Assembly (NCBI GenBank): GCA_032718475.1
Contig: JAUCBJ010004223.1
Coordinates: forward strand, 1-64,000
Origin: Nemertoderma westbladi
Lineage: Eukaryota > Animalia > Xenacoelomorpha
DNA length: 64,000 bases
Reading direction: 5' to 3'
Both the position numbers and the translations under genes were made by a program. Within the stretch, counting starts at the first letter, position 1, and each line of letters starts with the position of its first letter. Of this stretch, positions 9,001-31,901 are shown piece after piece. The notes under the pieces are model-generated. The model made no database searches and was not told the origin of the DNA. It worked only from the letters and a program-made list of their open reading frames with translations.

Positions 9001-10034
9001 CCTAAGGAACTCACCAGATAGAACTACGTAAGGTAAACAATCTCACAGCAACATATAACCAAGGCGTCCTAAGGAACTCACCAGATAGAACTATGTAAGG
9101 TAAACAATCTCACAGCAACATATAACCAAGGCGTCCTAAGGAACTCACCAGATAGAACTATGTAAGGTAAACAATCTCACAGCAACATATAACCAAGGCG
9201 TCCTAAGGAACTCACCAGATAGAACTATGTAAGGTAAACAATCTCACAGCAACATATAACCAAGGCGTCCTAAGGAACTCACCAGATAAAACTAAGTAAG
9301 GTAAACAATCTCACAGCAACATATAACCAAGGCGTCCTAAGGAACTCACCAGATAGAACTATGTAAGGTAAACAATCTCACAGCAACATATAACCAAGGC
9401 GTCCTAAGGAACTCACAAGATAGAACTATGTAATGTAAACAATCTCACAGCAACATATAACCAAGGCGTCCTAAGGAACTCACCAGATAGAACTATGTAA
9501 GGTAAACAATCTCACAGCAACATATAACCAAGGCGTACTAAGGAACTCACCAGATAGAACTATGTAAGGTAAACAATCTCACAGCAACATATAACCAAGG
9601 CGTCCTAAGGAACTCACCAGATAGAACTATGTAAGGTAAACAATCTCACAGCAACATATAACCAAGGCGTCCTAAGGAACTCACCAGATAGAACTATGTA
9701 AGGTAAACAATCTCACAGCAACATATAACCAAGGCGTCCTAAGGAACTCACCAGATAGAACTATGTAAGGTAAACAATCTCACAGCAACATATAACCAAG
9801 GCGTACTAAGGAACTCACCAGATAGAACTATGTAAGGTAAACAATCTCACAGCAACATAAAACCAAGGCGTCCTAAGGAACTCACCAGATAGAACTACGT
9901 AAGGTAAACAATCTCACAGCAACATATAACCAAGGCGTCCTAAGGAACTCACCAGATAGAACTACGTAAGGTAAACAATCTCACAGCAACATATAACCAA
10001 GGCGTCCTAAGGAACTCACCAGATAGAACTATGT
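3062..10034. repeat. 67-bp satellite, ~104 copies; unit = last 15 nt of Arp2 exon 6 plus first 52 nt of intron 6
   Basis: Minus-strand unit ACATAGTTCTATCTG|gtgagttccttaggacgccttggttatatgttgctgtgagattgtttacctt. Period 67, and the terminal copy is the real exon junction. Confidence 0.97.
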
Positions 10035-10197
10035 GTTTATAGAAATCAGCTCGGATATCCATATCAGCCGACTGAATGGTTGTGAATAACAACTCTGCAA
10101 TCCCAAATCCCTCAACGTTTATTAGATGCGGCTGAAATAGCGCTTCTGGGGCTTCGAACCTCTCACCCCCAATCTTAATAACACGCCCGTCAGGAAG
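10020..10197 (-). CDS. ACTR2: Arp2 exon 6, [59 protein letters not shown](G); gene continues beyond window start
   Basis: Manual translation. Acceptor ctcttttag, 178 nt, donor GTGAGT, phase 1. The expected next exon (GSTMYPG...) was not found in 1-10019. Confidence 0.94.
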
Positions 10198-10330
10198 CTA
10201 AAAGAGATTCAATACAATAAACAATATCGAACGATATTCATTAAATACTCAATAGTTAAATACATTAGGTGAAACCAATGGTACAGACTCAGAAAGAAAG
10301 TGATCAAACGAGTTAGTCATTGGGAAGTTG

Positions 10331-10502
10331 TAATAACTATTTACATACTTGTGGTGTGTAAAGTAGCACTTTACAGTGTGATGATCCGAGTGGCTTTGTT
10401 ACACGAACGAACGTAGTGAGTGAGTGAAAATAATGCCACGAGGATCAGAACACTGTAAAGTACTTTGCAAAAAGTATGTATGTAGTTTTATTCCAAAATT
10501 TT
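10331..10502. mobile_element. Palindromic MITE-like element
   Basis: actttacagtgtgatgatccgagtggc is inverted against gccacgaggatcagaacactgtaaagt, and tacatactt against aagtatgta. Loop gaacgaacgtagtgagtgagtg. Confidence 0.55.
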
Positions 10503-10526
10503 AACATTACGAAATGATTGTATATA

Positions 10527-11411
10527 CAGGGTGTCCCAATAAATTTGATCCACTTTTAAAGTTTAATAACTCATCACAATGTACATCAATCGCAGACTTC
10601 TAGGTGTCATACGAAAGCTAATAGGTGAACTTAGAATTTGGGAGTTTTTCTGGTTGTGGTAGTTGCTACTTGCTATGGAAACTAATCAGATAAGTTTACA
10701 TTAAAACTGTATCTTGAGTGTTAGATGTGAAATTTATTCGCGGAAATAAATAAATAATAACTTGTTTCCCTGTGAATAAACAACTATTCTAGAATGCCAT
10801 TTGTAGTTACTAGAGTAGCCAATATCTCTGTAATGTTTACAGACGAACAACAAGTTTTCATTGTTAAAACCTACTACCGAAAGCAGTCTTCCATGCTTAC
10901 AGAGTTAGAATTTTCTTACCAGTTCGTACCGGTAAGTGTTGGGCGTCCTACGAGATCAAACATATCGCGTCTTGTAAGAAAATTTGAGAGTGAAAAATCT
11001 TTGTTATGCAAATCAGGTACTCAAAGGCCTTCAATTAGCCTAGATAAAGTTTCAGTTATTAAAACGGAGCAGGTGGATTGGCAGAGACGGTCCTATACGA
11101 TGGCTAACTCGTTCTGCAGGGTCCTATACGATGGGTAACTCGTTCTGCAGGGTCCTATACGATGGCTAACTCGTTCTGCAGGGTCCTATACGATGGCTAA
11201 CTCGTTCTGCAGGGTCCTATACGGTGGCTAACTCGTTCTGCAGGGTCCTATACGATGGCTAACTCGTTCTGCAGGGTCCTATACGATGGCTAACTCGTTC
11301 TGCAGGGTCCTATACGATGGCTAACTCGTTCTGCAGGGTCCTATACGATGGCTAACTCGTTCTCCCGGTTTACTATTTATGGGGCCATACGATGGCTAAC
11401 TCGTTCTCCCG
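10527..11411 (+). mobile_element. Internally deleted Tc1/mariner transposon fragment (DUF4817-like HTH N-terminus plus RWIGRxGPxxWxxRSPDL remnant)
   Basis: Left end TA|CAGGGTGTCCC. ORF 10794-11138 reads FTDEQQVFIVKTYY...PTRSNISRLVRKFE. Another frame from 11071 reads RWIGRDGPIRWLTRS. No right TIR seen. Confidence 0.75.
11089..11363. repeat. 31-bp tandem repeat, ~9 copies, derived from the mariner coding sequence
   Basis: Unit gggtcctatacgatggctaactcgttctgca. Confidence 0.92.
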
Positions 11412-13797
11412 AGAATTTCTTACTTTGCAGAGGTACGTGTTTATCGAGGATGGACCTGAGAGAAAAGTCATACATTTCCACTAACTCGTCTAAGGTGTAG
11501 TTTGGAGTACTAAACAGGTTGCTGGTACTTAAGTCATTCCAATAATCATCTACATTAATTGACTTCAGTTTTCGGTATAGAGTGCTATTTTGGGTGTTAG
11601 TTGGTTTCTTAATATTGATGTTAAATGAAACCGTGAAGTGATCTGATAAACCGATGTCACTGGTAGATACGTTTTTTAATTAGATGTTCATTTTCAGTAT
11701 GGGTGAGAACCAAGTCCAAGGTATTCCACGATCGGTGGGGGGGTCCACTAACAAACTGTTGTAGACCAAAACACTTGCACATATCTAGAAAATCGGACGC
11801 CAGTCTGTCGTCATTCTTGTTAACATGAAAGTTAAAATCTCCAATTAAAATCAGTTTCCCCGACGTGATGGATATTCGTTCTAAAAAATCAGCAAACTTA
11901 TCAATAAAGAGCCGTGCAGTTAGACCATTTCGACTGGAAGGGCATGTGCGATAAATTATGAATAGGCGCACTAATGTGCCACAACATAGTATTGTTGTCT
12001 CTATAGATACTCAAAGGACGGATAGCTAATTTTGTATTCGATGTAGTTATTGACTTTCAGGCGAGTATTTATAACACAAGCGACACCACCATCGCAACTT
12101 GCAGTTGCTGAAGGAACTCTGGGTTTATTATGCAAACGGTAATTGGAATCTTTGGGACATAAAATGCTCGCAGGTACAATATCTGCAACTGTACCAGTAA
12201 ACAAGTTTCAATTATTGCAACGACATCGAAATCCATCTCCGAAAAATAATCATAAAAGTAGGAAGCCTTGTTATTTATGGATTGTGCATTAATTATACAG
12301 ATACTTATTGAAGCCATTCTTATCCAAACATGACAAAATAGGAGCGGATAAATGTTGAGCTGATCCAGATTCTGAAACTTCAGGAGGAACTGGAATCTGA
12401 ACTGAAATGGAACTGAAATCTAGTCAGTCCATACATTCAGTATTGTCGTCGCGAGGTTCTATGCGTCGGAAAACTCGAGATCGTACCTCGCCGGATGTAG
12501 TTCGAGAATCCAGAAACTCATCTTCCTGGATCTGTGCATCTTTGCTACTAGTACTAGTGTCTTTGTGCGCATTTGAGGAGTCCACCACCAGCGCTCGTTC
12601 AACCACTTCGTTACGACTTATTACCCACTTTTTGCGAGGTTCTTTGGAACGCTTCTTTTTCAGAGCCATTCTAAGCTCCTACTGTTCGTGGGCCTGTGCG
12701 CGAGTATAGTCAGGATTTATGTATACTGCCATAAATTTCACTGAGAACTGTAGATTCTTGGCAGCTTTTAAGAGTTCGAGCCGCTTATCTGGATTTAGAG
12801 TTACTACTATTTTCTGTCCAGGGTTACTCGAACGAGATTCAGGAACCGTTGGACCTATTCTTTTAACACCTACAATCCCTTCAGATAAATTAACACCAAC
12901 TTCTGCAGCAATGTCAACTACAGTCGCTTTATCATTAGTTGTGTCTGGTACGAAACTCCTGGAAATTACCAGGTTATCTATCCTCTCAGATTGAAGGCGA
13001 GTTTCTTTCTGTACTTCCCATGTAATTGCTGCTACTACCGGTACAGGAATATTCCAGGATGTGTTCCTCTCTCCTCAAACGATTCGCCCTCACTTAACCA
13101 CCGAGGACCACGAAGAACCAACTTCCTGAGCCTCGGCGGGTGAATCATCCTCTGAAGATAGGGCAGTTATCGATTCTTTAATAGTCACAACTTCATCAAC
13201 TATATTCTTAGCATCTTCTTTAACTTCATTGATTAAATCATGGAAGTCTGAGCGAACTGATTTAAGGGATGTGGTAACAGACCAACAATCGATTCTTTGT
13301 TGTGTTGTTGCGAGAGCGAGATTTTGTCAATTTCAGCTTGTAGACGAGACTCAACGTCCGATATTTCATCCGCCAACCTCGATATATGTCTGGCGGAACA
13401 CTGTCCACAATAAAACTCTACTTCAGTGAAGTCAATGGACGATTTAGCAATACAGATAATGGCGGTATTGTATTTCTTACCAGAGCAGCTAACCTTGATT
13501 TCTTCGGAGCTAGAATTGGCCACTTGTTGTGCTGCCACTTTCGCCTGCTTCGTCATCGAGTTCTTAGTCACCGGATCTCTTTTAGACCCGAGGCTTGTAA
13601 GCGTTCTGTTCACGCTATCTTTACTAAACTTTTCAAACTTATTGTTAATTGAACAAAAACCCAATTCGTTAATTAAAAGCTACGCAGCAAAGTATTCCAC
13701 CAAGCAACAGTACGATCGGTATATGGTACGTTACCAGTACGTGTGCTTCCGCCACCATATAGCACTAGACGTTGTATGCAATCAGTACTTATACTTA
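11412..13797 (-). mobile_element. Degenerate CR1/L2-group LINE: ORF1 remnants and AP-endonuclease domain, RT portion missing
   Basis: APE motifs split by frameshifts: ICIINAQSINNK...VAIIET (12069-12317), LILIGDFNFH and NTLDLVLT (11657-11971), then SDH. Upstream ORF1-like pieces include a Cys-containing segment (FYCGQC) and a coiled-coil-like stretch. Confidence 0.8.
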
Positions 13798-15669
13798 TAC
13801 GATGACGATGGCTAACTCGTTCTCCCGGATTACTATTTATGGGGCCATACGATGGCTAACTCGTTCTCCCGGTTTACTATTTATGGGGCCATACGATGAT
13901 GGCTAACTCGTTCTCCCGGTTTACTATTTATGGGGCCATACGATGATGGCTAACTCGTTCTCCCGGTTTAGTATTTATGGGGCCATACGATGGCTAACTC
14001 GTTCTCCCGGTTTACTATTTATGGGGCCATACGATGATGGCTAACTCGTTCTCCCGGTTTACTATTTATGGGGCCATACGATGATGGCTAACTCGTTCTC
14101 CCGGTTTAGTATTTATGGGGCCATACGATGATGGCTAACTCGTTCTCCCGGTTTACTATTTATGGGGCTATATGATGGCTAACTCGTTCTCCCGGTTTAG
14201 TATTTATGGGGCCATACGATGATGGCTAACTCGTTCTCCCGGTTTACTATTTATGGGGCTATACGATGGCTAACTCGTTCTCCCGGATTACTATTTATGG
14301 GGCCATACGATGATGGCTAACTCATTCTCCCGGTTTACTATTTATGGGGCCATACGATGGCTAACTCGTTCTCCCGGTTTACTATTTATGGGGCCATACG
14401 ATGATGGCTAACTCGTTCTCCCGGTTTACTATTTATGGGGCCATACGATGATGGCTAACTCGTTCTCCCGGTTTACTATTTATGGGGCCATACGATGATG
14501 GCTAACTCATTCTCCCGGTTTACTATTTATGGGGCCATACGATGGCTAACTCGTTCTCCCGGATTACTATTTATGGGGCTATATGATGGCTAACTCGTTC
14601 TCCCAGTTTACTATTTATGGGGCTATACGATGGCTAACTCGTTCTCCCGGTTTACTATTTATGGGGCTATACGATGGCTAACTCGTTCTCCCGGTTTACT
14701 ATTTATGGGGCTATATGATGGCTAACTCGTTCTCCCGGTTTACTATTTATGGGGCTATACGAAGGCTAACTCGTTCTCCCGGTTTACTATTTATGGGGCT
14801 ATCTGATGGCTAACTCGTTCTCCCGGTTTACTATTTATGGGGCCATACGATGATGGCTAACTCGTTCTCCCGGTTTACTATTTATGGGGCCATACGATGA
14901 TGGCTAACTCGTTCTCCCGGTTTACTATTTATGGGGCCATACGATGATGGCTAACTCGTTCTCCCGGTTGACTATTTATGGGGCTATATGATGGCTAACT
15001 CGTTCTCCCGGTTTACTATTTATGGGGCTATACGATGGCTAACTCGTTCTCCCGGTTTACTATTTATGGGGCCATACGATGGCTAACTCGTTCTCCCGGT
15101 TTACTATTTATGGGGCTATATGATGGCTAACTCGTTCTCCCGGTTTAGTATTTATGGGGCCATACGATGATGGCTAACTCGTTCTCCCGGTTTACTATTT
15201 ATGGGGCTATACGATGGCTAACTCGTTCTCCCGGATTACTATTTATGGGGCTATATGATGGCTAACTCATTCTCCCAGTTTACTATTTATGGGGCTATAT
15301 GATGGCTAACTCGTTCTCCCGGTTTAGTATTTATGGGGCCATACGATGATGGCTAACTCGTTCTCCCGGTTTACTATTTATGGGGCTATACGATGGCTAA
15401 CTCGTTCTCCCGGATTACTATTTATGGGGCTATATGATGGCTAACTCGTTCTCCCGGTTTACTATTTATGGGGCCATACGATGATGGCTAACTCGTTCTC
15501 CCGGTTTACTATTTATGGGGCCATACGATGATGGCTAACTCGTCCTCCTGGTTTACTATTTATGGGGCCATACGATGATGGCTAACTCGTTCTCCTGGTT
15601 TACTATTTATGGGGCCATACGATGGCTAACTCGTTCTCCAGGTTTACTATTTATGGGGCCATACGATGA
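13798..15669. repeat. 44/47-bp satellite, ~41 copies, mariner-derived
   Basis: Unit tac(gat)gatggctaactcgttctcccggtttactatttatggggcca. The same unit occurs at ~11343-11411 on the other side of the LINE. Confidence 0.95.
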
Positions 15670-17372
15670 TATTGGATATCATCAATGGACGAAATCCATT
15701 GATGACATGTGCAGCTTCATTACGAACTTGCTATCAAAGTCGGCTTCTTCGAAGAGTAAGAGGAAATCAAAACCATGGTTCGATAAATCATGCTACAAAC
15801 TCCAACAAGAGGTGCGTACTGCCCGCTCACGGTTAGACTCATGCGATGCGAACAGTTCAAGCTTTGATAATTACAGACGCACTCAGCAGCTATACAAAGC
15901 AACAATCAAAGAAAAGATAAAGTACTTTCAGTATGTTTAGGAGACCCGCTTCCTCGAGCGCTGTGAAGAGGACCAGCATGCGTTTTGGGAAATAACAAAA
16001 TTTAAACCAGCTAAATCAGTGGCTCAGCAAGTTCCGCTAGAAGAATAGTCTACTCATTTTAGCAAGTTGCTTTCTCGGAATGTTGTGCCTGAATTACATA
16101 TTCTTTCAAACAGGACCAACCAGGATCTTGATGCTCCTATAACCCAAGCGGAGGTAACAGCTTCTGTGTCTAGACAAAAATCTGGAAAAGCTGCAGGTCC
16201 GGACAGAGTTTCGAATGAATCCATAAAGTCTGGCTTTGGTCTCCTGTTACCTTTCCTTTGGGTGCTATTCTCAACTTGCTTCGAGTTTGCCTGTCGTCCG
16301 ACAAGTTGGCTGACGTCCATTGTTCTACCCTTGTATAAAGGGAAGGGAGCAAAGGCTTCGCCGGATTCCTACAGGGGCATTGCGTTGCTTAGTTGCCTGC
16401 TAAAAATCTATACAACCATACTTTTCAACCGCCTTTATCATTGGGCGGAATTCATGGAAGTTCTTCCCAACTGCCAATATGGTTTTCGGAAAGGCAGATC
16501 GACAGTAATGGCTGTTCGAAGTCTGCTCTCCTCGGTCACTTCTGCCTTAGCAACCCCTGGAGGACATATGTATTGTGTTTTCATAGATTTCACAAAGGCT
16601 TTCGATTCGGTTGATCGCCGATTGCTATGCTCCAAACTTGAGTTCTTGGGCGTCAGCAGTAAAATGATAAGGGCGATTTGGGCACTGATCGCGTTCAACA
16701 TAATTTGTATCACAGTGGGTGGTAAGGCCCTTTCTCGCAACGATAAACTGACTTACAAGGGTAATCAAATAGACTTTGTGAACTCGTTCTCCTATTTAGG
16801 GGTAGTATTGTCGACGAAAAACACCTCTGGTGCTCCCTTCGACCACCTAAAGAGTCGCGGAGTTTCCTCTAGTTTGCAGATAGCAAGCAAAGTAAATCTA
16901 AAGTGAATCTCACTTGACAGTGCAATCAAACTATGGGCCTATGTCGTCTTCCCAGCAACCGTTTATGGGTGTGAAATTTTTACTGATAGACCCAGAGCAG
17001 AATGGAACACACTACCTCACGTTCATAAAGTACACAGCTTCTACTTTAAACTATGGTGGGGCTGTCAAAGTACAGCTCCACCTCGAGAATCCTCGCTGCC
17101 ATTGATTCACCCCAAAACGCACAGATTAACCTGCGGTACCTCTCTCTCCCACCAATGAAGGCGTGTCCGCACAGTTCCTCTCGAACGCGTTCCACCATAA
17201 GATCTGTTATTCTAGATGCTGGAGGCCCACTCCCTCCTGTTTGTGTCGTCTCTGCAGAGGTTCGGCTGAAGATTTTTTGCACTGTGCTTCCTGCTCGTAT
17301 ATACCCTCAATCGGTAATAATCTACACCTGGCGTTCCACCTACAGGCATTCATATAACACATTTTTTTTTTT
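15670..17372 (+). mobile_element. 5'-truncated, internally deleted non-LTR retrotransposon (RT pseudogene; RTE/RTEX-like, clade uncertain)
   Basis: Motifs KPWFDKSC, GKAAGPD, YRGIALLS, QYGFRKGRST and FIDFTKAFDSV, then a jump to FSYLGV with no QG or YADD block. In-frame stops. C-terminal CRLC...EDFLHC zinc motif. Confidence 0.85.
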
Positions 17373-17422
17373 AAATTATTTAACTAATTGTATTTAGATA
17401 TCTATTACTTAGTCTCTCTTAT

Positions 17423-19200
17423 ATGAACTACCGGTACTTATCTTCTCTATTTATTTATAATTTAAATATTTTAACAAATTTTACATATCCGTTGGATATA
17501 ATAAAGTCTCCATTAATCAATAAACTTGTTATTGTTACGTCACTAGTGTTTAGATTTGTACATAAATTGAAATCGAAAGTATCTGAACGGAAATATAGTA
17601 TTAGTAGAGATAATATTACTCGTATAAAATTGCCGTTCATCCGGGTGTGTGAGTTTAATGAGGCTGAGATGTGGCTAGTTAACCAAGCACAACGTGAGAG
17701 TCATCCTGACGTGTGGGAATATTTGGATGATCCAAAGAGACGTCGAGTGCCTTCTATTGTTAAACAATTACAGCTGGCAATGGTAGACGGCATAATCCGC
17801 AGTATCGGCAGGATACAGAATGCAGATTTACCATGGGAAACAAGATATCCAATATTTCTTACATCCCGCCATTATCTGACTAATCTCATCATTTCGCATG
17901 GTCATAGTGAATTAGTAAAGCATGCAGGTATAGGAGATACTGTACTTTGTCTCAGGCAAAGTCTTTGTCTCAGGTGGTGGATACCTTCTATTAGACAATG
18001 AGTAAAGTCTATACGGCGACATTGTAAGGTCTGTCGTAAAATACAAGGCCCACATTATCCAGTACCTCCACCTCCCCCTTTACCGAGTATTCGTGTTAAA
18101 GAACGTCGACCCTTTAATTGCACTGGTGTCGATTACACAGGTGCTGCGTCGGTAAGAAACCATGCTGAGAAAATAAAGGTATACATTGCTCTATTTACAT
18201 GTAGCGCAAGTCGTGCAGTGCACTTGGAGATTGTAAGTGATAATACCCCAGATACCTTCTTAATGGCACTAAGGCGATTCGTTGGGCGCCGAGGATGTCC
18301 CTCATTAATAATGAGTGATAATGCATCCACCTTTACAGCTGCTAATGGTTGTCTAAGAATAGCTAGAGACAATTTTAAAGTTAGTAAATTCTTATTGACG
18401 AACTTTATTTCATGGGAGTTTATTCCCTCGTCTTCTCCTTGGATGGGCGGTATATGGGAACGCCTTTCTAGGGTTGATGAAGACATTATTGAAGAAGGTA
18501 TTGGGTTGTGCATTAGTGTCCTTGGAAGAGTTACATACTTTTGTCGTAGAAACCGAAACGGTGATGAATGACAGACCGTTAACTTACGTATATGGTAACA
18601 ATGACAACCCTCATCCCTTGACTCCGTCTATGTTGGTTTCAGGCAACCGCATTTCTACCTTGTATAGACCAGTTATTGATAGCGATTTATTTAGTGACCC
18701 CTCTTATGGTCTCCCGACTCGAGAAGATCTCATGGTTCGACATAATCGAATTCATAAATTACTTAGCGATTACTGGAGTCGCTGGTCCTATGACTACTTG
18801 ACCACGTTAAGAGAATTTCATAGATGGAACATTAAGGAACCTAAGGAAATAGTACATGTGGGAGATATCGTTCTAATAGGGGATTCTAATGTACCCAGAG
18901 CACAGTTCCGTATGGGTAAAGTTATTGATTTACATCCATGAAAGGATGGATGGATAAGGTCCGTAACTCTTCGAACTCCAAATGGCCAGATTCGAAGTTT
19001 ATCTCTTGGAGTTTGGTGGTGTTGAAGAAACTTCGAGCGAACTTTTACCATTGAAAGTTGACGAGTGTAATGTTATAAGGTCGTCCAACCCGTAGTGCTG
19101 CCAAGGTAGCAAAAGATAAAATTCTCAAAATCGCACTCAGTGAAACTGAAAGTGTGAGTGAATGAAGTTAAATATTGTTAAGTTGAACGAACATATTTAC
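17423..19200 (+). mobile_element. BEL/Pao LTR retrotransposon pol fragment (integrase plus C-terminal DUF5641-like region), pseudogenised
   Basis: HHCC region (H..HAG..CKVC), PFNCTGVDYTG, AVHLEIV...ALRRFVGRRG...SDNASTF, SPWMGGIWERL, MNDRPL, WSRWSYDYL, VGDIVLI. Stops and a frameshift are present. Confidence 0.9.
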
Positions 19201-19230
19201 TGGTGACATAGTCTACGTAAATTACATTTA

Positions 19231-22200
19231 TATACTTAGAGTATAGGATTCCACAAGGATTGTGGTCTCAATCAACTGTTATACTTACAGTATAGGATTC
19301 CACAAGGACTGTGGTCTCAATCAACTGTTATACTTACAGTATAGGATTCCACAAGGACTGTGGTCTCAATCAACGGTTATACTTACAGTATAGGATTCCA
19401 CAAGGACTGTGGTCTCAATCAACTGTTATACTTACAGTATAGGATTCCACAAGGACTGTGGTCTCAATCAACTGTTTTACTTACAGTATAGGATTCCACA
19501 AGGACTGTGGTCTCAATCAACTGTTGTACTTACAGTATAGGATTCCACAAGGACTGTGGTCTCAATCAACTGTTATACTTACAGTATAGGATTCCACAAG
19601 GACTGTGGTCTCAATCAACGGTTATACTTACAGTATAGGATTCCACAAGGACTGTGGTCTCAATCAACTGTTATACTTACAGTATAGGATTCCACAAGGA
19701 CTGTGGTCTCAATCAACGGTTATACTTACAGTATAGGATTCCACAAGGACTGTGGTCTCAATCAACTGTTTTACTTACAGTATAGGATTCCACAAGGACT
19801 GTGGTCTCAATCAACTGTTATACTTACAGTATAGGATTCCACAAGGACTGTGGTCTCAATCAACGGTTATACTTACAGTATAGGATTCCACAAGGACTGT
19901 GGTCTCAATCAACTGTTATACTTACAGTATAGGATTCCACAAGGACTGTGGTCTCAATCAACTGTTATACTTACAGTATAGGATTCCACAAGGACTGTGG
20001 TCTCAATCAACTGTTATACTTACAGTATAGGATTCCACAAGGACTGTGGTCTCAATCAACTGTTATACTTACAGTATAGGATTCCACAAGGACTGTGGTC
20101 TCAATCAACTGTTATACTTACAGTATAGGATTCCACAAGGACTGTGGTCTCAATCAACTGTTATACTTACAGTATAGGATTCCACAAGGACTGTGGTCTC
20201 AATCAACTGTTATACTTACAGTATAGGATTCCACAAGGACTGTGGTCTCAATCAACTGTTATACTTACAGTATAGGATTCCACAAGGACTGTGGTCTCAA
20301 TCAACTGTTATACTTACAGTATAGGATTCCACAAGGACTGTGGTCTCAATCAACTGTTATACTTACAGTATAGGATTCCACAAGGACTGTGGTCTCAATC
20401 AACTGTTATACTTACAGTATAGGATTCCACAAGGACTGTGGTCTCAATCAACTGTTATACTTACAGTATAGGATTCCACAAGGACTGTGGTCTCAATCAA
20501 CTGTTATACTTACAGTATAGGATTCCACAAGGACTGTGGTCTCAATCAACTGTTATACTTACAGTATAGGATTCCACAAGGACTGTGGTCTCAATCAACT
20601 GTTATACTTACAGTATAGGATTCCACAAGGACTGTGGTCTCAATCAACTGTTATACTTACAGTATAGGATTCCACAAGGACTGTGGTCTCAATCAACTGT
20701 TATACTTACAGTATAGGATTCCACAAGGACTGTGGTCTCAATCAACTGTTATACTTACAGTATAGGATTCCACAAGGACTGTGGTCTCAATCAACTGTTA
20801 TACTTACAGTATAGGATTCCACAAGGACTGTGGTCTCAATCAACTGTTATACTTACAGTATAGGATTCCACAAGGACTGTGGTCTCAATCAACTGTTATA
20901 CTTACAGTATAGGATTCCACAAGGACTGTGGTCTCAATCAACTGTTATACTTACAGTATAGGATTCCACAAGGACTGTGGTCTCAATCAACTGTTATACT
21001 TACAGTATAGGATTCCACAAGGACTGTGGTCTCAATCAACTGTTATACTTACAGTATAGGATTCCACAAGGACTGTGGTCTCAATCAACTGTTATACTTA
21101 CAGTATAGGATTCCACAAGGACTGTGGTCTCAATCAACTGTTATACTTACAGTATAGGATTCCACAAGGACTGTGGTCTCAATCAACTGTTATACTTACA
21201 GTATAGGATTCCACAAGGACTGTGGTCTCAATCAACTGTTATACTTACAGTATAGGATTCCACAAGGACTGTGGTCTCAATCAACTGTTATACTTACAGT
21301 ATAGGATTCCACAAGGACTGTGGTCTCAATCAACTGTTATACTTACAGTATAGGATTCCACAAGGACTGTGGTCTCAATCAACTGTTATACTTACAGTAT
21401 AGGATTCCACAAGGACTGTGGTCTCAATCAACTGTTATACTTACAGTATAGGATTCCACAAGGACTGTGGTCTCAATCAACTGTTATACTTACAGTATAG
21501 GATTCCACAAGGACTGTGGTCTCAATCAACTGTTATACTTACAGTATAGGATTCCACAAGGACTGTGGTCTCAATCAACTGTTATACTTACAGTATAGGA
21601 TTCCACAAGGACTGTGGTCTCAATCAACTGTTATACTTACAGTATAGGATTCCACAAGGACTGTGGTCTCAATCAACTGTTATACTTACAGTATAGGATT
21701 CCACAAGGACTGTGGTCTCAATCAACTGTTATACTTACAGTATAGGATTCCACAAGGACTGTGGTCTCAATCAACTGTTATACTTACAGTATAGGATTCC
21801 ACAAGGACTGTGGTCTCAATCAACTGTTATACTTACAGTATAGGATTCCACAAGGACTGTGGTCTCAATCAACTGTTATACTTACAGTATAGGATTCCAC
21901 AAGGACTGTGGTCTCAATCAACTGTTATACTTACAGTATAGGATTCCACAAGGACTGTGGTCTCAATCAACTGTTATACTTACAGTATAGGATTCCACAA
22001 GGACTGTGGTCTCAATCAACTGTTATACTTACAGTATAGGATTCCACAAGGACTGTGGTCTCAATCAACTGTTATACTTACAGTATAGGATTCCACAAGG
22101 ACTGTGGTCTCAATCAACTGTTATACTTACAGTATAGGATTCCACAAGGACTGTGGTCTCAATCAACTGTTATACTTACAGTATAGGATTCCACAAGGAC

Positions 22201-22651
22201 TGTGGTCTCAATCAACTGTTATACTTACAGTATAGGATTCCACAAGGACTGTGGTCTCAATCAACTGTTATACTTACAGTATAGGATTCCACAAGGACTG
22301 TGGTCTCAATCAACTGTTATACTTACAGTATAGGATTCCACAAGGACTGTGGTCTCAATCAACTGTTATACTTACAGTATAGGATTCCACAAGGACTGTG
22401 GTCTCAATCAACTGTTATACTTACAGTATAGGATTCCACAAGGACTGTGGTCTCAATCAACTGTTATACTTACAGTATAGGATTCCACAAGGACTGTGGT
22501 CTCAATCAACTGTTATACTTACAGTATAGGATTCCACAAGGACTGTGGTCTCAATCAACTGTTATACTTACAGTATAGGATTCCACAAGGACTGTGGTCT
22601 CAATCAACTGTTATACTTACAGTATAGGATTCCACAAGGACTGTGGTCTCA
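19231..22651. repeat. 49-bp satellite, ~70 copies; unit = last 31 nt of Arp2 exon 5 plus first 18 nt of intron 5
   Basis: Minus-strand unit TGAGACCACAGTCCTTGTGGAATCCTATACT|gtaagtataacagttgat. The terminal copy is the real exon 5 junction. Confidence 0.97.
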
Positions 22652-22770
22652 GTAGATAATTGCTGCTCTTGTTCGATATCGTAACCAACGTAACAAAGTT
22701 TCTCTTTGATCATCCGAACTGTCTCGAAATCCGCTGAGTGGTTGAAAGCGTAACCACGGAGAAGTAATAG
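22621..22770 (-). CDS. ACTR2: Arp2 exon 5, [50 protein letters not shown]
   Basis: Lies within ORF 22600-22848. 150 nt, acceptor tttatttcag, donor GTAAGT. Arp2-diagnostic [15 protein letters not shown]. Confidence 0.95.
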
Positions 22771-22883
22771 CTGAAATAAAAACCGAAAAATACCATAAAA
22801 ATATATCGTCAGATCGCTCAGATTCCTCAAGAATTGCCTATCAATCATATAAATTTATATCTGTTTCAGATTCTAAGTGATGT

Positions 22884-23112
22884 GTTTGTAAAAGCAACAT
22901 ATGTTTGTAAAAGCAGCATCTGTTTGTAAAAGCAACATCTGTTTGTAAAAGCAACATCTGTTTGTAAAAAAAAAACTCTGTTTGTAAAAGCAACATCTGT
23001 TTGTAAAAGCAACATATGTTTGTAAAAGCAACATATGTTTGTAAATCTGTTTGTAAAAGCAACATTTCTTTGTAAAAGCAACATCTGTTTGTAAAAGCAA
23101 CATCTGTTTGTA
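22884..23112. repeat. 19-bp minisatellite, ~12 copies, near the intron 4 acceptor
   Basis: Unit aaagcaacatctgtttgta. Confidence 0.9.
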
Positions 23113-23719
23113 CACTAACTATGGGGAATTCTTGTAAAGCTGTGTATGCCATGAGTGAGGGAAAAATAATACCGAGGTCAAATTTTGCATAGGCGGACTG
23201 GAGAGGCACGAAGTACCTGCGAGCAGAGTACATCGGCGCATGCGCCCGAATGTCCCACCGAATAACCGACTATTATCTATTCGGCAGTGCGGAACCATCA
23301 GATGGAAACTGACGGAACCGATCAGGAAGCACAATGCATCCCTAGTTGGATGCACGGACCTCTTGTACAGCAAGGAGGGAACTCTAACACTTATACAACA
23401 ATAAAACTTGTTAACTATCTGCGAGTAATCGGATAATTAAAATTAATTCTGCAAAGCCAATTATAGATTTATGTTAATGAGAGTAACGTAAAATACTTGG
23501 GCAAATAAATTGTATTAATCGGTTTAATATTTTGGCGAATAAATAAAAAAAAATTATATGAACGTGATTATATAGAATACATGGTACATGTGTTGCATGT
23601 TAGGTTAGACTCTGCGTAATCTTGTTGGTCTATATATTTTCTTTAACACGAATATATTATATATTTTTTTTCGTAACCATATCGCTTCTTAGTAGATGGA
23701 TTTTCCTCGAAGGTATTGT

Positions 23720-25607
23720 CTCTGCCAACCCCTAACTCTTCCCCACCCTAACTCTGCCCCTTTCTAACTCTACCCCACCCTAACTCTGCCCCACCCTAAC
23801 TCTGCCCCTTTCTAACTCTACCCCACCCTAACTCTGCCCCACTCTAAATCTGCCCCACCCCTAACTCTGCCCCACCCTAACTCTGCCCCACCCCAACTCT
23901 GCCCCACCCTAACTCTGCCCCACCCTAACTCTGCCCCACCCTAAATCTGTCCCACCCTCAATCTGCCCACCTCTAACTCTGCCCCACCCTAACTCTACCC
24001 CACCCTAACTCTGCCCCTTTCTAACTCTGCTCCACCCTAAATCTGCCCCACCCTAAATCTGCCCCACCCTAACTCTGCCCACCTCTAACTCTGCCCCACC
24101 CTAACTCTGCCCCACCCGAACTCTGCCCCTTTATAACTCTGCCCCACCCTAACTCTACCCCACCCTAACTCTGCCCCACCCTAAATCTGCCCCACCCTAA
24201 ATCTGCCCCTTTCTAACTCTGCCCCACCCTAACTCTGCCCCTTTCTAACTCTGCCCCACCCTAACTCTGCCCACCCTAAATCTGCCCACCCCTAACTCTT
24301 CCCCACCCTAACTCTGCCCCACCCTAACTCTGCCCCACCCGAACTCTGCCCCACCCTAACTCTACCCCACCCTAACTCTGCCCCACCCTAAATCTGCCCC
24401 TTCTAACTCTGCCCCACCCTAACTCTGCCCCTTTCTAACTCTGCCCCACCCTAAATCTGCCCCACCCTAAATCTGCCCCACCCTAACTCTGCCCCACCCT
24501 AACTCTGCCCCACCTAACTCTGCCCCTTTCTAACTCGGCCCCACCCTAACTCTGCCCCTTTCTAACTCGGACCCACCCTAACTCTGCCCCACCCTAAATC
24601 TGCCCAACCCTAACTCTGCCCCACCCTAACTCTGCTCACCCCTAACTCTACCCCACCCCAACTCCGCCCTTTTCTAACTCGGCCCCACCCTAACTCTGCC
24701 CCACCCTAACTCTGCCCCACCCTAACTCTGCGCCACCCTAACTCTGCCCCACCCTAAATCTGCCCCACCCTAAATCTGCCCACCCCTAACTCTGCCCCTT
24801 TCTAACTCTACCCCACCCTAACTCTGCCCCACCCTAAATCTGCCCCACCCTAAATCTGCCCCACCCTAACTCTGCCCCTTTCTAACTCTGCCCCACCCTA
24901 ACTCTGCCCCACCCTAATTCTGCCCCACCCCTAACTCTGCCCCACCCTAACTCTGCCCCACCCGAACTCTGCCCCTTTCTAACTCTACCCCACCCTAACT
25001 CTGCCCACCCTAAATCTGCCCCACCCTAAATCTGCCCCACCCTAACTCTGCCCCTTCTAACTCTGCCCCACCCTAACTCTGCCCCTTTCTAACTCTACCC
25101 CACCCTAACTCTGCCCCACCCTAAATCTGCCCACCCTAAATCTGCCCCACCCTAACTCTGCCCCTTTCTAACTCTACCCCACCCTAACTCTGCCCCACCC
25201 TAAATCTGCCCCACCCTAAATCTGCCCCACCCTAACTCTGCCCCTTTCTAACTCTGCCCCACCCTAAATCTGCCCCACCCTAAATCTGCCCCACCCTAAC
25301 TCTGTCCCTTTCTAACTCTGCCCCACCCTAACTCTGCCCCTTTCTAACTCTGCCCCACCCTAAATCTGCCCCACCCTAACTCTGCCCCACCCTAACTCTG
25401 CCCCACCCTAACTCTGCCCCTTTCTAACTCTACCCCACCCTAACTCTGCCCCACCCTAAATCTGCCCCACCCTAAATCTGCCCCACCCTAACTCTGCCCC
25501 TTTCTAACTCTACCCCACCCTAACTCTGCCCCACCCTAAATCTGCCCCACCCTAAATCTGCCCCACCCTAACTCTGCCCCTTTCTAACTCTGCCCCACCC
25601 TAACTCA
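23720..25607. repeat. 16-bp C-rich satellite, ~115 copies, containing CCCTAA
   Basis: Unit ccccaccctaactctg, with variants cccctttctaactct and ccctaaatctg. Confidence 0.95.
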
Positions 25608-26078
25608 AATGTATACGGGTTTTCGAGGACGCTGACATAACAACTCGTAAAATATCATATGCGGTAACGCAAAACTTCATTTTTGGTGCTTGTCAGGTGG
25701 GACGAAAAATACAAGTAGCAGAAAATTTCAAAAGGCAAAATCGAATTTGGTTGGATAAGACGATATTTTTGAGTGTCATATTCGTGATCAGCGTCCCAGA
25801 AAACCCACAATGGCTATAAAATCAGGTTGATTTGGTAATGAGTTTTCGATTATAAAATTTGTGCTACTTGTATTATTCGTCCAGGAGGGCACATTCAATT
25901 ACGAAATTTTTTTTCGAATAATATATTTTAATTCTATAGTCGTGATCTGTGTCCAAAAAAACCGCTATATACCGCAAATAAATTAATTTTAGTGAGCCAT
26001 ACAAACTTTTGAAAATGTTAGCACAAAAAATACCGGAGATGGGTGCCCGAAAGGGACACCAGCACGAAAACTAACATA

Positions 26079-26905
26079 CCGTATTTACTCGAATAAGAGC
26101 CCACTCGAATAAAAGCCCGGGGCTCGAATTAACGCCCCTCTTACCATCAAATTAGAAACTTAAACGCATTCCCGAATAAAACGCGTTTAATAATATTACA
26201 TTGTGCGGCGTTAACATTGTTTAGAGTTATTGTTAAAACTGAAGGTAAATGGAGTGCGGTGTTGTACCGCCTGGCTGCGTTGTAATAAAGATAATCCTGG
26301 TTTTATTTGACCCACTCGAACCTCACAATTTGGAACTTAAACGCCCTCCTCGAATAAACGCCCCCCTCGAATAAACGCCCCCCCCCTGGAATAAACGCCT
26401 TCCTCGAATAAACGCCCCCCTCGAATAAACGCCCCCTCGAATAAACGCCTTCCCGAATAAACGCCTTCCCCGAATAAACGCACGCTCCGAATACACGCCC
26501 TCCCCGAATAAACGCCCCCCCTCGATTAAACGCCCCCCCCCCCCCCCCGAATAAGCGCCCTCCCCGAATAAACGCCCCTCCCCCCCGAATAAACGCCCTC
26601 CCCGAATAAACGCACGCTCCGAATATAAGCCCTCCCCGAATAAACGCCCCCCTCGATCCCCGAATAAACGCCCTCCCCGAATAAACGCCCCCCTAGAATA
26701 AACGCCCCCCCCGAATAAACGCCCTCCCCGAATAAACGCCTTCCCTCGAATAAACGCCCTCCTCGAATAAACGCCCTCCTCGAATAAACGCCCCCCCCCC
26801 CCGAATAAACGCCCCCCCCCCCGAATCAATGCCCCCTCGAATAAACGCCCTCCCCGAATAAACGCCCTCCTCGAATAAACGCCCTCCCCGAATAAACGCC
26901 CCCCG
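26079..26905 (+). mobile_element. pogo/Tc1-like MITE left end with an expanded ~17-bp CGAATAAACGCCC array (26340-26905)
   Basis: Terminus TA|CCGTATTTACTCGAATAAG followed by subterminal copies of the motif that forms the array. Right end not found. Confidence 0.6.
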
Positions 26906-27380
26906 AGTATTCCCGATAATCTTCTTTGTTCACAATCCACCAAATCGGCTGTACAGCTTTACAAACAATGAGGTAACGCCGATATGTTTCAACTGCAGGC
27001 TCCTCCAGAGAACGAAATTTATTGCAAAATTTAAATCGACGCTAATGTTTAAAATGGTACAATTGCACACAGAAGATAAATAATATTTTTTAACTCTTAA
27101 ACAAAAATACATTTCCAGCAAAATTGGAATTGGAACCTCAGAAAATGTAAGTGTTTGAAAATAAAAATAATAATTCTGACTCAAAAGTTTCAAAGTGCCA
27201 AAAAAATACCCTTTTTGATGACGGTAATACTTGAATGACCCCTTATAAAGTATACTATAAGTCTATTAGTTCAAGGTTCTTCTCATCTTAGAATTTTTAA
27301 CTCTAAAATAAAGATAAAAGTAGTAGATTATTACAAATAAATATACTATATGAGCCTATAGCCCATGAGGTAAGATGATA

Positions 27381-27468
27381 AGAACCGAGGACTACAGCAT
27401 TCCCTTTAATCCTGTTTATATCGCAGAACCGAGGACTACAGCATTCCCTTTAATCCTGTTTATATCGC
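27381..27468. repeat. Perfect 44-bp tandem duplication ~65 nt into intron 4
   Basis: agaaccgaggactacagcattccctttaatcctgtttatatcgc occurs twice. Confidence 0.9.
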
Positions 27469-27533
27469 GGTTTTTTTAGTTCAAATTATAACGAAAAAAC
27501 TGTCCACCTTGTAATTATTCTCAATACTCTCAC

Positions 27534-27743
27534 CTTGATAAGATACTTGGTAATATCGCGGCCGGCAATGTCCAACCGTTTAGTAAGATGGGGTAACGAG
27601 AATCCGTCATACACGGGACATATGTGGGTGACGCCATCCCCTGAGTCAACAACCACACCTGTTAGTAAACCTTGGGCGTAGAGTGTCATTACAGCCTGAA
27701 TGGCAACGTAGACCCCGGCGAATTCAAACTGCTCCAACATAAT
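27534..27743 (-). CDS. ACTR2: Arp2 exon 4, [18 protein letters not shown]...[15 protein letters not shown]...[13 protein letters not shown]
   Basis: Overlaps ORF 27486-27740. Actin phosphate-2 loop DSGDGVTH, 210 nt, acceptor atttcag, donor GTGAGA. Confidence 0.95.
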
Positions 27744-27812
27744 CTGAAATAATCAACCAATGGCGTGCGTGTCCGATAGATATATGTTAATGTCATAACT
27801 AAACTGTCATAA

Positions 27813-30800
27813 GTTCCGATATACTAGATAGAAGGTTCCGATATACTAGATAGAAGGTTCCGATATACTAGATAGAAGGTTCCGATATACTAGATAGAAG
27901 GTTCCGATATACTAGATACAAGGTTCCGATATACTAGATAGAAGGTTCCGATATACTAGATAGAAGGTTCCGATATACTAGATAGAAGGTTTCGATATAC
28001 TAGATAGAAGGTTTCGATTTACTAGATAGAAGGTTCCGATATACTAGATAGAAGGTTCCGATATACTAGATAGAAGGTTCCGATATACTAGATAGAAGGT
28101 TCCGATATACTAGATAGAAGGTTCCGATATACTAGATAGAAGGTTCCGATATACTAGATAGAAGGTTCCGATATACTAGATAGAAGGTTCCGATATACTA
28201 GATAGAAGGTTCCGATATACTAGATAGAAGGTTCCGATATACTAGATAGAAGGTTCCGATATACTAGATAGAAGGTTCCGATATACTAGATAGAAGGTTC
28301 CGATATACTAGATAGAAGGTTCCGATATACTAGATAGAAGGTTCCGATATACTAGATAGAAGGTTCCGATATACTAGATAGAAGGTTCCGATATACTAGA
28401 TAGAAGGTTCCGATATACTAGATAGAAGGTTCCGATATACTAGATAGAAGGTTCCGATATACTAGATAGAAGGTTCCGATATACTAGATAGAAGGTTCCG
28501 ATATACTAGATAGAAGGTTCCGATATACTAGATAGAAGGTTCCGATATACTAGATAGAAGGTTCCGATATACTAGATAGAAGGTTCCGATATACTAGATA
28601 GAAGGTTCCGATATACTAGATAGAAGGTTCCGATATACTAGATAGAAGGTTCCGATATACTAGATAGAAGGTTCCGATATACTAGATAGAAGGTTCCGAT
28701 ATACTAGATAGAAGGTTCCGATATACTAGATAGAAGGTTCCGATATACTAGATAGAAGGTTCCGATATACTAGATAGAAGGTTCCGATATACTAGATAGA
28801 AGGTTCCGATATACTAGATAGAAGGTTCCGATATACTAGATAGAAGGTTCCGATATACTAGATAGAAGGTTCCGATATACTAGATAGAAGGTTCCGATAT
28901 ACTAGATAGAAGGTTCCGATATACTAGATAGAAGGTTCCGATATACTAGATAGAAGGTTCCGATATACTAGATAGAAGGTTCCGATATACTAGATAGAAG
29001 GTTCCGATATACTAGATAGAAGGTTCCGATATACTAGATAGAAGGTTCCGATATACTAGATAGAAGGTTCCGATATACTAGATAGAAGGTTCCGATATAC
29101 TAGATAGAAGGTTCCGATATACTAGATAGAAGGTTCCGATATACTAGATAGAAGGTTCCGATATACTAGATAGAAGGTTCCGATATACTAGATAGAAGGT
29201 TCCGATATACTAGATAGAAGGTTCCGATATACTAGATAGAAGGTTCCGATATACTAGATAGAAGGTTCCGATATACTAGATAGAAGGTTCCGATATACTA
29301 GATAGAAGGTTCCGATATACTAGATAGAAGGTTCCGATATACTAGATAGAAGGTTCCGATATACTAGATAGAAGGTTCCGATATACTAGATAGAAGGTTC
29401 CGATATACTAGATAGAAGGTTCCGATATACTAGATAGAAGGTTCCGATATACTAGATACAAGGTTCCGATATACTAGATAGAAGGTTCCGATATACTAGA
29501 TAGAAGGTTCCGATATACTAGATAGAAGGTTCCGATATACTAGATAGAAGGTTCCGATATACTAGATAGAAGGTTCCGATATACTAGATAGAAGGTTCCG
29601 ATATACTAGATAGAAGGTTCCGATATACTAGATAGAAGGTTCCGATATACTAGATAGAAGGTTCCGATATACTAGATAGAAGGTTCCGATATACTAGATA
29701 GAAGGTTCCGATATACTAGATAGAAGGTTCCGATATACTAGATACAAGGTTCCGATATACTAGATAGAAGGTTCCGATATACTAGATAGAAGGTTCCGAT
29801 ATACTAGATAGAAGGTTCCGATATACTAGATAGAAGGTTCCGATATACTAGATAGAAGGTTCCGATATACTAGATAGAAGGTTCCGATATACTAGATAGA
29901 AGGTTCCGATATACTAGATAGAAGGTTCCGATATACTAGATAGAAGGTTCCGATATACTAGATAGAAGGTTCCGATATACTAGATAGAAGGTTCCGATAT
30001 ACTAGATAGAAGGTTCCGATATACTAGATAGAAGGTTCCGATATACTAGATAGAAGGTTCCGATATACTAGATAGAAGGTTCCGATATACTAGATAGAAG
30101 GTTCCGATATACTAGATAGAAGGTTCCGATATACTAGATAGAAGGTTCCGATATACTAGATAGAAGGTTCCGATATACTAGATAGAAGGTTCCGATATAC
30201 TAGATAGAAGGTTCCGATATACTAGATAGAAGGTTCCGATATACTAGATAGAAGGTTCCGATATACTAGATACAAGGTTCCGATATACTAGATAGAAGGT
30301 TCCGATATACTAGATAGAAGGTTCCGATATACTAGATAGAAGGTTCCGATATACTAGATAGAAGGTTCCGATATACTAGATAGAAGGTTCCGATATACTA
30401 GATAGAAGGTTCCGATATACTAGATAGAAGGTTCCGATATACTAGATAGAAGGTTCCGATATACTAGATAGAAGGTTCCGATATACTAGATAGAAGGTTC
30501 CGATATACTAGATAGAAGGTTCCGATATACTAGATACAAGGTTCCGATATACTAGATAGAAGGTTCCGATATACTAGATAGAAGGTTCCGATATACTAGA
30601 TAGAAGGTTCCGATATACTAGATAGAAGGTTCCGATATACTAGATAGAAGGTTCCGATATACTAGATAGAAGGTTCCGATATACTAGATAGAAGGTTCCG
30701 ATATACTAGATAGAAGGTTCCGATATACTAGATAGAAGGTTCCGATATACTAGATAGAAGGTTCCGATATACTAGATAGAAGGTTCCGATATACTAGATA

Positions 30801-31714
30801 GAAGGTTCCGATATACTAGATACAAGGTTCCGATATACTAGATAGAAGGTTCCGATATACTAGATAGAAGGTTCCGATATACTAGAAAGAAGGTTCCGAT
30901 ATACTAGATACTAGAAGGTTCCGAAATACTAGATAGAAGGTTGCGATATACTAGATAGAAGGTTCCGATATACTAGATAGAAGGTTGCGATATACTAGAT
31001 AGAAGGTTCCGATATACTAGATAGAAGGTTCCGATATACTAGATAGAAGGTTCCGATATACTAGATACAAGGTTCCGATATACTAGATAGAAGGTTCCGA
31101 TATACTAGATAGAAGGTTCCGATATACTAGATAGAAGGTTCCGATATACTAGATAGAAGGTTCCGATATACTAGATAGAAGGTTCCGATATACTAGATAG
31201 AAGGTTCCGATATACTAGATAGAAGGTTCCGATATACTAGATAGAAGGTTCCGATATACTAGATACAAGGTTCCGATATACTAGATAGAAGGTTGCGATA
31301 TACTAGATACAAGGTTCCGATATACTAGATAGAAGGTTGCGATATACTAGAAAGAAGGTTCCGATATACTAGATAGAAGGTTCCGATATACTAGATAGAA
31401 GGTTCCGATATACTAGATAGAAGGTTCCGATATACTAGATAGAAGGTTCCGATATACTAGATAGAAGGTTCCGATATACTAGATACAAGGTTCCGATATA
31501 CTAGATAGAAGGTTGCGATATACTAGATACAAGGTTCCGATATACTAGATAGAAGGTTCCGATATACTAGATAGAAGGTTCCGATATACTAGATAGAAGG
31601 TTCCGATATACTAGATAGGAGGTTCCGATATACTAGATAGAAGGTTGCGATATACTAGATAGGAGGTTCCGATATACTAGATAGAAGGTTCCGATATACT
31701 AGATAGAAGGTTCC
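27813..31714. repeat. 22-bp satellite, ~177 copies, filling ~98% of Arp2 intron 3
   Basis: Unit gttccgatatactagatagaag. Begins 6 nt after the exon 3 donor; the intron is 27744-31720. Confidence 0.97.
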
Positions 31715-31720
31715 ACTGAC

Positions 31721-31901
31721 CTCGAGCATCTTCATCCTATTAGTCAGCGGGTTCATTGGCGGCTCTGTCAGTAGGATTTTGCTGTCCTTGGGGTTTATGT
31801 TAAGTTTTGTTTCACCGAAGGTATATTCCCATAACAACATCTGGTCTTCCCAATTCCTAACCATGCCGTTCTCCATTGGATAACTCAGCTCCAATAACGA
31901 C
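31721..31901 (-). CDS. ACTR2: Arp2 exon 3, (R)[20 protein letters not shown]...[18 protein letters not shown]
   Basis: Lies within ORF 31655-31909. YPMENG and LTEPPMNP motifs, 181 nt, acceptor attag, donor GTCAGT. Confidence 0.94.

What the first reader, a model, noticed from the sequence alone, without database searches (positions are those of the whole stretch)
19231..22651. ~70 copies of the exon 5 end and donor; each unit holds a potential 36-nt in-frame cassette
Seen: the gene-strand unit is gtaagtataacag|TTG ATT GAG ACC ACA GTC CTT GTG GAA TCC TAT ACT|gtaagt. That is a 13-nt GT..AG spacer plus 12 stop-free phase-0 codons ([12 protein letters not shown]). Donor read-through gives VSITVD-stop. 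The array is homogeneous next to the exon and matches it exactly. Variants lie at the distal end, where the last copy has GT changed to CT and a few copies lose the AG. This is a second, independent exon-end amplification in the same gene, again frame-preserving. Inference: array conversion could homogenise or mutate 10 Arp2 codons. The 13-nt spacer is too short to splice and the pyrimidine tract is poor, so only non-adjacent copies could be included.
Basis: partly seen in the sequence, partly recalled or inferred. Interest (0 to 1): 0.8.

Follow-up and report, generated by a model that had tools for sequence, protein, structure and literature searches.

The report
Splice-donor minisatellite in Arp2 intron
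The last 31 bases of exon 5 of an animal's Arp2 gene, with its splice signal, are repeated about 70 times into the next intron, but the two assembled transcript-like sequences join exon 5 straight to exon 6 at the first signal, so this is likely a tolerated, large example of a repeat type already known from lancelets and human genes.

Summary
Arp2 exon 5 (22770-22621, minus strand) ends inside a 49-bp array of 69 units. Each unit is 18 intronic nt plus the exon's last 31 nt, giving one true donor and 68 copies. In two public runs that behave as spliced RNA (two studies), one contig joins exon 5 directly to exon 6 at the first donor with no 36-nt insert; contigs cannot exclude rare isoforms. 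An in-frame, stop-free AG-to-donor stretch arises in 20-65% of simulated duplications of this gene's array-free donors. The 36-nt acceptor is weak. One sample carries a synonymous exon allele (22639) that its dominant repeat unit lacks, and the ten amplified codons match the Arp2 majority. The structure matches lancelet 'mirage' minisatellites and the human F7/CBS boundary VNTRs, where the first donor wins (PMC1557585, PMC3087553). It has more copies than those published cases (5-25). This scan's unchecked notes report many such arrays, some far larger, on other pieces of this genome and in other genomes. Verdict: new member of a known kind, low interest.

The parts
22621..22770 (-). Arp2 exon 5 (150 nt, phase 0-0; Arp2 residues 196-245)
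   Evidence: phmmer to PDB Arp2; seven-exon open frame; X2 and X3 contigs cover exactly this stretch
22615..22620 (-). Authentic intron 5 donor GTAAGT (first unit), the one used
   Evidence: X2 contig letters 414/415 and X3 contig letters 573/574 join exon 6 to exon 5 here
19231..22651 (-). 49-bp minisatellite: last 31 nt of exon 5, then 69 units (18 intronic + 31 exon-like nt), then a 9-nt partial copy
   Evidence: high-depth unit contigs in X1 and X7
19877..22620 (-). Units 1-56, all identical
19240..19876 (-). Units 57-69, holding all 8 variant units (4 lose the AG)
19231..19239 (-). Terminal partial copy with dead donor (CT for GT)
22572..22607 (-). Putative 36-nt in-frame pseudo-exon of unit 1 (repeated in each AG-bearing unit); not seen in transcript-like contigs
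   Evidence: direct exon 5-6 join
22600..22602 (-). In-frame TGA met by any transcript that uses a downstream donor by extending exon 5
   Evidence: translation
22639..22639 (-). Synonymous exon-5 allele (Val GTC to GTA) in sample S1; not in any of the window's 70 copies, nor in X1's dominant unit contig
   Evidence: X3 loose end; X1 records 4 and 8
10020..10197 (-). Arp2 exon 6, the splice partner of exon 5
3062..10034 (-). Second boundary array: 67-bp unit (52 intronic + 15 exon-like nt), 103 full units plus a partial, starting in exon 6
   Evidence: X2 joins exon 6 to exon 7 at its first donor
1408..38489 (-). Arp2 gene exons 1-7 (38489-38442, 34249-34104, 31901-31721, 27743-27534, 22770-22621, 10197-10020, 1508-1408); the gene runs on past the window start

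Best explanation
This is a minisatellite whose unit spans the Arp2 exon 5/intron 5 junction; it likely arose by tandem duplication and grew by slippage or unequal exchange, and it is likely tolerated because splicing uses the first donor, as the transcript-like contigs show. Shown: unit anatomy (exon -31 to intron +18), 69 donors, presence in two DNA-like samples, and a direct exon 5-6 join in two RNA-like runs. Inferred: origin by duplication in a genome prone to intronic tandem repeats; choice of the most upstream donor by the 5'-to-3' priority shown for human F7; destruction by nonsense-mediated decay of any product from a downstream donor, since it would carry the TGA six codons into unit 1; and the 36-nt in-frame stretch as a by-product of copying coding sequence next to a chance AG, not a selected cassette.
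For: The same X2 contig (1,292 nt, depth 4,459) lies on exon 6 with letters 234-414 and on exon 5 with letters 415-566. The same X3 contig (709 nt, depth 6.6) lies on exon 5 with letters 422-573 and on exon 6 with 574-709. Neither has inserted letters; their loose ends are exon 4, exon 6 and, for X2, exon 7. Tandem arrays make up 20,752 of 38,489 bp (54%) of the gene span and 62% of the window, and 11 of the 13 arrays tabulated in the gene do not include a donor. Chance level for an open in-frame pseudo-exon is 0.20-0.65. The first YAG ends at +13 also in intron 2, which has no boundary array. The only YTRAY branch-like motif in the unit (positions 14-18) is followed by two nearer AGs before the cassette AG. 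The segment has fixed length in 80 of 82 matched Arp2 proteins. Precedent: F7, LMNB2 and PDGF use only the first donor; CBS and 6-16 also use two pseudo-sites; lancelet mirages do not disturb splicing (PMC1557585, PMC3087553, PMC3902484).
Against: Contigs drop rare variants, and decay-sensitive products would be depleted, so low-level use of other donors or of the cassette is not excluded. X2 and X3 are not on record as RNA; that they are spliced transcripts is inferred from intron-less joins. X3 shares sample S1 with X1, a possible source of the window. 5 of 8 AG sites in the two units give 3n pseudo-exons. 56 consecutive units equal the exon end exactly, which fits recent growth but also ongoing exchange with the exon. 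In human CBS and 6-16, two pseudo-donors are used besides the authentic one (PMC1557585 introduction). An unchecked note reports use of an internal variant donor in this genome's GALNS array.
Confidence: 0.8

Rival explanations
1. The array yields real minor isoforms. Copies from the second or third unit onward would be spliced in as 36-nt cassettes, adding 12 residues after Arp2 residue 245, or nearby pseudo-donors would be used and tune Arp2 level through NMD.
For: 65 of 69 units keep GT and AG with an open 36-nt frame. Introns of 62 or 111 nt to units 2 and 3 are plausible lengths (inference). Pseudo-donor use is reported for CBS and 6-16 (PMC1557585). An unchecked note reports internal donor use in this genome.
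Against: Direct exon 5-6 joins in both RNA-like runs, one at depth 4,459. Weak acceptor and competing nearer AGs. Segment length fixed in 80 of 82 Arp2 proteins. Chance level of 0.20-0.65.
Confidence: 0.1
2. The array and the exon evolve in concert. Gene conversion from 69 copies would homogenise or mutate the last ten codons of exon 5.
For: Units 1-56 equal the exon end exactly; X7's exon and unit contigs both match the window. Concerted evolution within mirage clusters is reported (PMC3087553). An unchecked note mentions hints of exchange at HBS1L.
Against: Sample S1 has a synonymous exon allele at 22639 that its dominant unit contig lacks. This is one allele, and 28 further records were not shown, so minor copies with it are not excluded. 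The ten residues equal the Arp2 majority. In the 67-bp array the first two units differ from the exon, and variants sit at both ends, so exon-anchored homogeneity is not general. Identity is equally explained by a young array.
Confidence: 0.07
3. The array is an assembly artefact (a stutter or over-expanded repeat).
For: 56 identical units; copy number in the reads could not be measured.
Against: Unit contigs at depth about 1,100 against 28.5 and 11.7 for flanks in two samples from two studies; structured variants at the distal end.
Confidence: 0.02

Closest known systems
Human F7 intron 7 37-bp VNTR, with the CBS intron 13, interferon-inducible 6-16, LMNB2 and PDGF intron 4 minisatellites it cites (PMC1557585; seen: abstract, search passages incl. 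introduction and results, Discussion section)
   Same: The first monomer spans the exon-intron boundary, identical donor copies are reiterated downstream, and the most upstream donor is used.
   Different: 5-25 copies there against 69 here; 31 exonic nt per unit against 4 in F7; two such arrays in one gene; no mutational test of pseudo-donor function here.
Human CBS 31-bp VNTR c.1444_1467+7(16_21) (PMC2630376, passages; Lievers 2001 seen only as a citation)
   Same: The unit is mostly coding exon end (24 nt) plus the first intronic bases with the donor.
   Different: 16-21 copies; two pseudo-sites reported in use (per PMC1557585), whereas none was seen here at contig level.
Lancelet 'mirage' minisatellites: Adh3, globins BflGb6/BflGb9, troponin C, PGBD5 (PMC3087553 abstract and passages; PMC3902484 one passage)
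   Same: Invertebrate tandem repeats of exon-intron boundaries with AG/GT signals in many units, regular splicing, homogeneous interior with diverged boundary units, and a proposed route to exon or intron gain from internal units.
   Different: Globin mirages have 3-6 units of 150-160 bp; here 69 and 103 nearly identical units of 49 and 67 bp. Length instability is shown there and only suggested here.

Membership tests
Exon-intron boundary minisatellite (mirage / F7-type), donor class | Head-to-tail tandem unit whose first monomer spans a real exon-intron boundary | tested here: met
Exon-intron boundary minisatellite (mirage / F7-type), donor class | Splice-site sequence reiterated identically in downstream copies | tested here: met
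   GTAAGT intact in 69 of 69 units; exon-like part exact in 68 of 69
Exon-intron boundary minisatellite (mirage / F7-type), donor class | Regular mRNA made from the authentic, most upstream donor | tested here: met
   2 of 2 RNA-like runs laid, dominant contig only
Exon-intron boundary minisatellite (mirage / F7-type), donor class | Homogenised interior with diverged boundary units | tested here: met
   49-bp array: variants only in units 57-69; 67-bp array: variants in units 1-15 and 70-104, none in 16-69
Exon-intron boundary minisatellite (mirage / F7-type), donor class | Copy-number variation between alleles or individuals | tested here: inconclusive
   Array present in samples S1 and S5; contig depth is not a copy number
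Exon-intron boundary minisatellite (mirage / F7-type), donor class | Pseudo-donors become active when the first donor is inactivated | not testable with these tools
   Needs a minigene; shown for F7 in PMC1557585
Alternative cassette-exon array (exonised repeat) | Junction evidence for inclusion of a unit | tested here: inconclusive
   Dominant contigs join exon 5 to exon 6 directly; contigs cannot show rare forms
Alternative cassette-exon array (exonised repeat) | Acceptor with pyrimidine tract comparable to the gene's real acceptors | tested here: not met
   8 of 17 pyrimidines against 9, 11, 11, 12, 12, 14 of 17; a narrow margin over the weakest real acceptor
Alternative cassette-exon array (exonised repeat) | Frame preservation above chance | tested here: inconclusive
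   Chance 0.20-0.65 per unit; 5 of 8 AG sites are 3n; two arrays are too few and no genome is held

The most novel reading that the evidence does not exclude
In this lineage splice-donor junctions preferentially seed large satellites, and those that persist are biased to open 3n units. They would act as reservoirs of low-level in-frame cassettes and as conversion donors for exon ends, so repeat turnover would feed directly into the coding sequence of core genes such as Arp2.
Probability: 0.07. Interest if true: 0.65.

Novelty: new member of a known kind. Interest (0 to 1): 0.2.

Why it matters
As found, it is a natural demonstration that first-donor priority holds against 68 identical decoy donors in an essential cytoskeletal gene of an invertebrate, extending a rule tested on 5-9 copies in human F7. 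The locus alone changes little. Its value would be as one data point in a genome-wide test of whether junctions seed such arrays and whether 3n units are favoured. If cassette inclusion or array-to-exon conversion were shown, it would make the mirage model of exon/intron gain (PMC3087553) directly testable.

Tried and rejected
No whole genome is held, so the genome-wide 3n test was not possible. The run search with exon 4 listed 8 runs, none on record as RNA: 'no RNA holder listed' is no evidence. Four of the 8 runs were laid (X1, X2, X3, X7); X4, X5, X6 and X8 were not. X2 and X3 had no cover on the first intronic unit (22572-22620), which is not counted as evidence of absence. Depth ratios of unit to flank differ between X1 and X7, but contig depth is no copy number, so length polymorphism is not claimed. 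No reads were laid across the whole array or on its distal end. A probability for the distal clustering of variants used a wrong count (9, the true count is 8) and a post-hoc window on non-independent variants, and was discarded; notebook entry 1 has the same miscount. The exon coordinates were off by a few bases and were corrected. In one search the motif matched 82 of 120 proteins; 38 were dropped (unmatched, not inspected), and the two length exceptions (51 and 16 residues) look like gene-model errors (inference). The simulation used only donors 1, 2, 4 and 7 (6,572 heavily overlapping units); donors 3, 5 and 6 were left out because arrays adjoin them. The shared '+13 AG' of both arrays was rejected as special because intron 2 has it too. 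Paper searches with no hits: (acoelomorph + intron + minisatellite + splice); two searches gave nothing closer than the papers cited. PMC10078293 (passages) covers repeat-length effects on splicing but added no boundary-spanning case in the passages seen. The library lacks most subscription papers, and no supplements were opened.

Full report
Observation. TRF finds a 49-bp array of 69.8 copies, 99% matched, at 19231-22651. On the minus strand it starts 31 nt inside a 150-nt exon (22770-22621) that matches Arp2 residues 196-245 (E 4.8e-25). This is the fifth of seven exons forming an open Arp2 frame in the window. Cut at the donor, the array has 69 full units (22620-19240) and a 9-nt partial copy beginning CT. 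Units 1-56 are identical. Eight variant units lie among units 57-69, and four of them lose the AG. Each unit is 18 intronic nt plus 31 exon-like nt, so there are one authentic donor and 68 copies.

Is it real DNA? In two DNA-like runs from different samples and studies (X1, a possible source; X7), unit contigs lie at depth about 1,100 against 28.5 and 11.7 for flanking contigs. Depth is not a copy number, but the repeat is plainly multi-copy in both.

Context. Tandem arrays cover 54% of the gene span and 62% of the window. Of 13 arrays tabulated in the gene, two include a donor (exon 5, 49 bp; exon 6, 67 bp), and several others lie within about 100 nt of exon ends without copying a site. The best named relatives on exon 4 are animal Arp2s at up to 90% identity. 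Earlier scan notes suggest an acoelomorph worm; I did not test this.

Splicing. Four of the 8 listed runs were laid on exon 5 plus one unit and on exon 6 plus one unit. X2 and X3 are not on record as RNA, but their contigs cover exons only and jump between them, so I read them as spliced transcripts. One X2 contig (1,292 nt, depth 4,459) lies on exon 6 with letters 234-414 and on exon 5 with letters 415-566. One X3 contig (709 nt, depth 6.6) lies on exon 5 with letters 422-573 and on exon 6 with letters 574-709. Both joins are at the first donor with no inserted letters. X2 also joins exon 6 to exon 7 at the first donor of the 67-bp array. X2 is a different sample and study from the possible source; X3 is the same sample as X1. 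Contigs drop rare forms, so minor isoforms are not excluded.

Is the 36-nt cassette more than chance? I simulated 6,572 duplications across the four array-free donors. At least one in-frame, stop-free AG-to-donor stretch appeared in 0.65 of units (any AG, 9 nt or more), 0.43 (YAG, 9 or more), 0.33 (any AG, 24 or more) and 0.20 (YAG, 24 or more); per site, 0.32-0.41 were 3n. The units overlap, so these are rough figures. Against my reading, 5 of 8 AG sites in the two real units are 3n (binomial p about 0.09 by hand). However, the 67-bp unit's +13 option carries a stop, and a YAG ending at +13 occurs in intron 2 as well. The cassette acceptor has 8 of 17 pyrimidines against 9-14 at real acceptors. 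The unit's one YTRAY motif is followed by two nearer AGs. The segment from the KE.LCY motif to LPDGR is 21 residues long in 80 of 82 matched Arp2 proteins (38 of 120 unmatched), so a 12-residue insert would be unusual.

Conversion. X3's copy of the exon end differs from the window at 22639 (Val GTC to GTA). X1 record 8 has one other letter and extends into the repeat to 22610, which requires an exon-specific letter in 22621-22640 (inference from 31-letter words). X1's dominant unit contig (depth 1,111) has no difference over 22572-22614, which includes the equivalent site, and all 70 window copies carry the window letter. So this exon allele is not shared with the bulk of the array. It is one allele, X3's depth is low, and 28 records were not shown. 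The ten amplified residues equal the Arp2 majority at all ten positions. In the 67-bp array the first two units differ from the exon and variants sit at both ends, the ordinary pattern of a homogenised interior.

Mechanism. Shown: anatomy, presence in two samples, first-donor splicing in the dominant contigs. Inferred: a 49-nt duplication across the junction grew by slippage or unequal exchange; the most upstream donor wins, as shown by mutation for human F7; any exon extension to a later donor meets a TGA six codons into unit 1 and would be an NMD target. The F7 study found that position, not a stop codon, explained its pseudo-site silence (Discussion), so the stop here is a fail-safe at most. 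Confidence 0.8; minor isoforms 0.10; meaningful conversion 0.07; artefact 0.02.

Known systems. PMC1557585 (abstract, passages, Discussion) describes the F7 37-bp VNTR (5-9 copies) and lists 6-16 (25 pseudo-sites, two used), CBS (15-20 units, two pseudo-sites used), LMNB2 (10-15) and PDGF (16-18), the last two using only the authentic donor. PMC2630376 (passages) gives the CBS unit as 24 exonic plus 7 intronic nt. PMC3087553 (abstract and passages) and PMC3902484 (one passage) describe lancelet mirages that do not disturb splicing, and the former proposes that internal units could become exons. I found F7 and CBS by my own searches; the mirage term and paper came from earlier scan notes. Those unchecked notes report donor arrays of hundreds to about 2,100 copies elsewhere in this genome and similar arrays in other genomes. 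My searches found no paper on such arrays in this group, in a library that lacks most subscription journals.

Verdict. Observation confirmed; interpretation partly supported. A new member of a known kind, larger than the published cases I read but modest beside the larger arrays the scan notes report in this genome. Interest 0.2. The most novel reading not excluded, that such arrays are biased to open 3n units and feed cassettes or conversions into core genes, has probability about 0.07 and would merit 0.65.

Noticed in passing
window 3062-10034 (-): 67-bp donor array at exon 6: 103 full units plus a partial, with variants at both ends and none in units 16-69. Present in X1 and X7; X2 splices exon 6 to exon 7 at the first donor.
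   Followed up: yes
window 27813-31714: 22-bp array (177 copies) fills 3.9 of the 4.0 kb of intron 3, starting 7 nt after the donor and ending 70 nt before the acceptor, without copying either site.
   Followed up: partly
window 34261-34424, 33970-34077, 27381-27468, 22883-23112: Several small arrays sit within 12-113 nt of exon ends, suggesting tandem repeats cluster near junctions whether or not they copy a splice site; not tested against random placement.
   Followed up: partly
window 16049-16906 and 17384-18941 (+): Retroelement fragments in intron 5, antisense to Arp2: an RT frame (PF00078, E 5.8e-15) and an integrase (PF00665, below its cut-off) followed by DUF5641 (E 6.9e-14), an order I recall as BEL/Pao-like, ending about 290 nt from the distal end of the array.
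   Followed up: partly
window 11089-11410 and 13807-15670: A 44-47-bp array seems to resume about 2.4 kb away and grade into a related 31-bp array. The insert between them has degenerate frames; the one scanned had no Pfam match.
   Followed up: partly
window 47338-64000, 42047-43442, 40996-41076: AT-rich 29-bp satellite of at least 574 copies upstream of Arp2, running off the window end, with shorter blocks separated by other sequence.
   Followed up: no
run X2, record 10 and record 4: A second Arp2-like intron-less sequence under 90% identical (depth 125-137), probably from another organism in the sample or a paralogue.
   Followed up: no
window 32060-33900 and 35850-37780: Stretches in introns 2 and 1 that look by eye like LINE reverse-transcriptase remnants; not scanned.
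   Followed up: no
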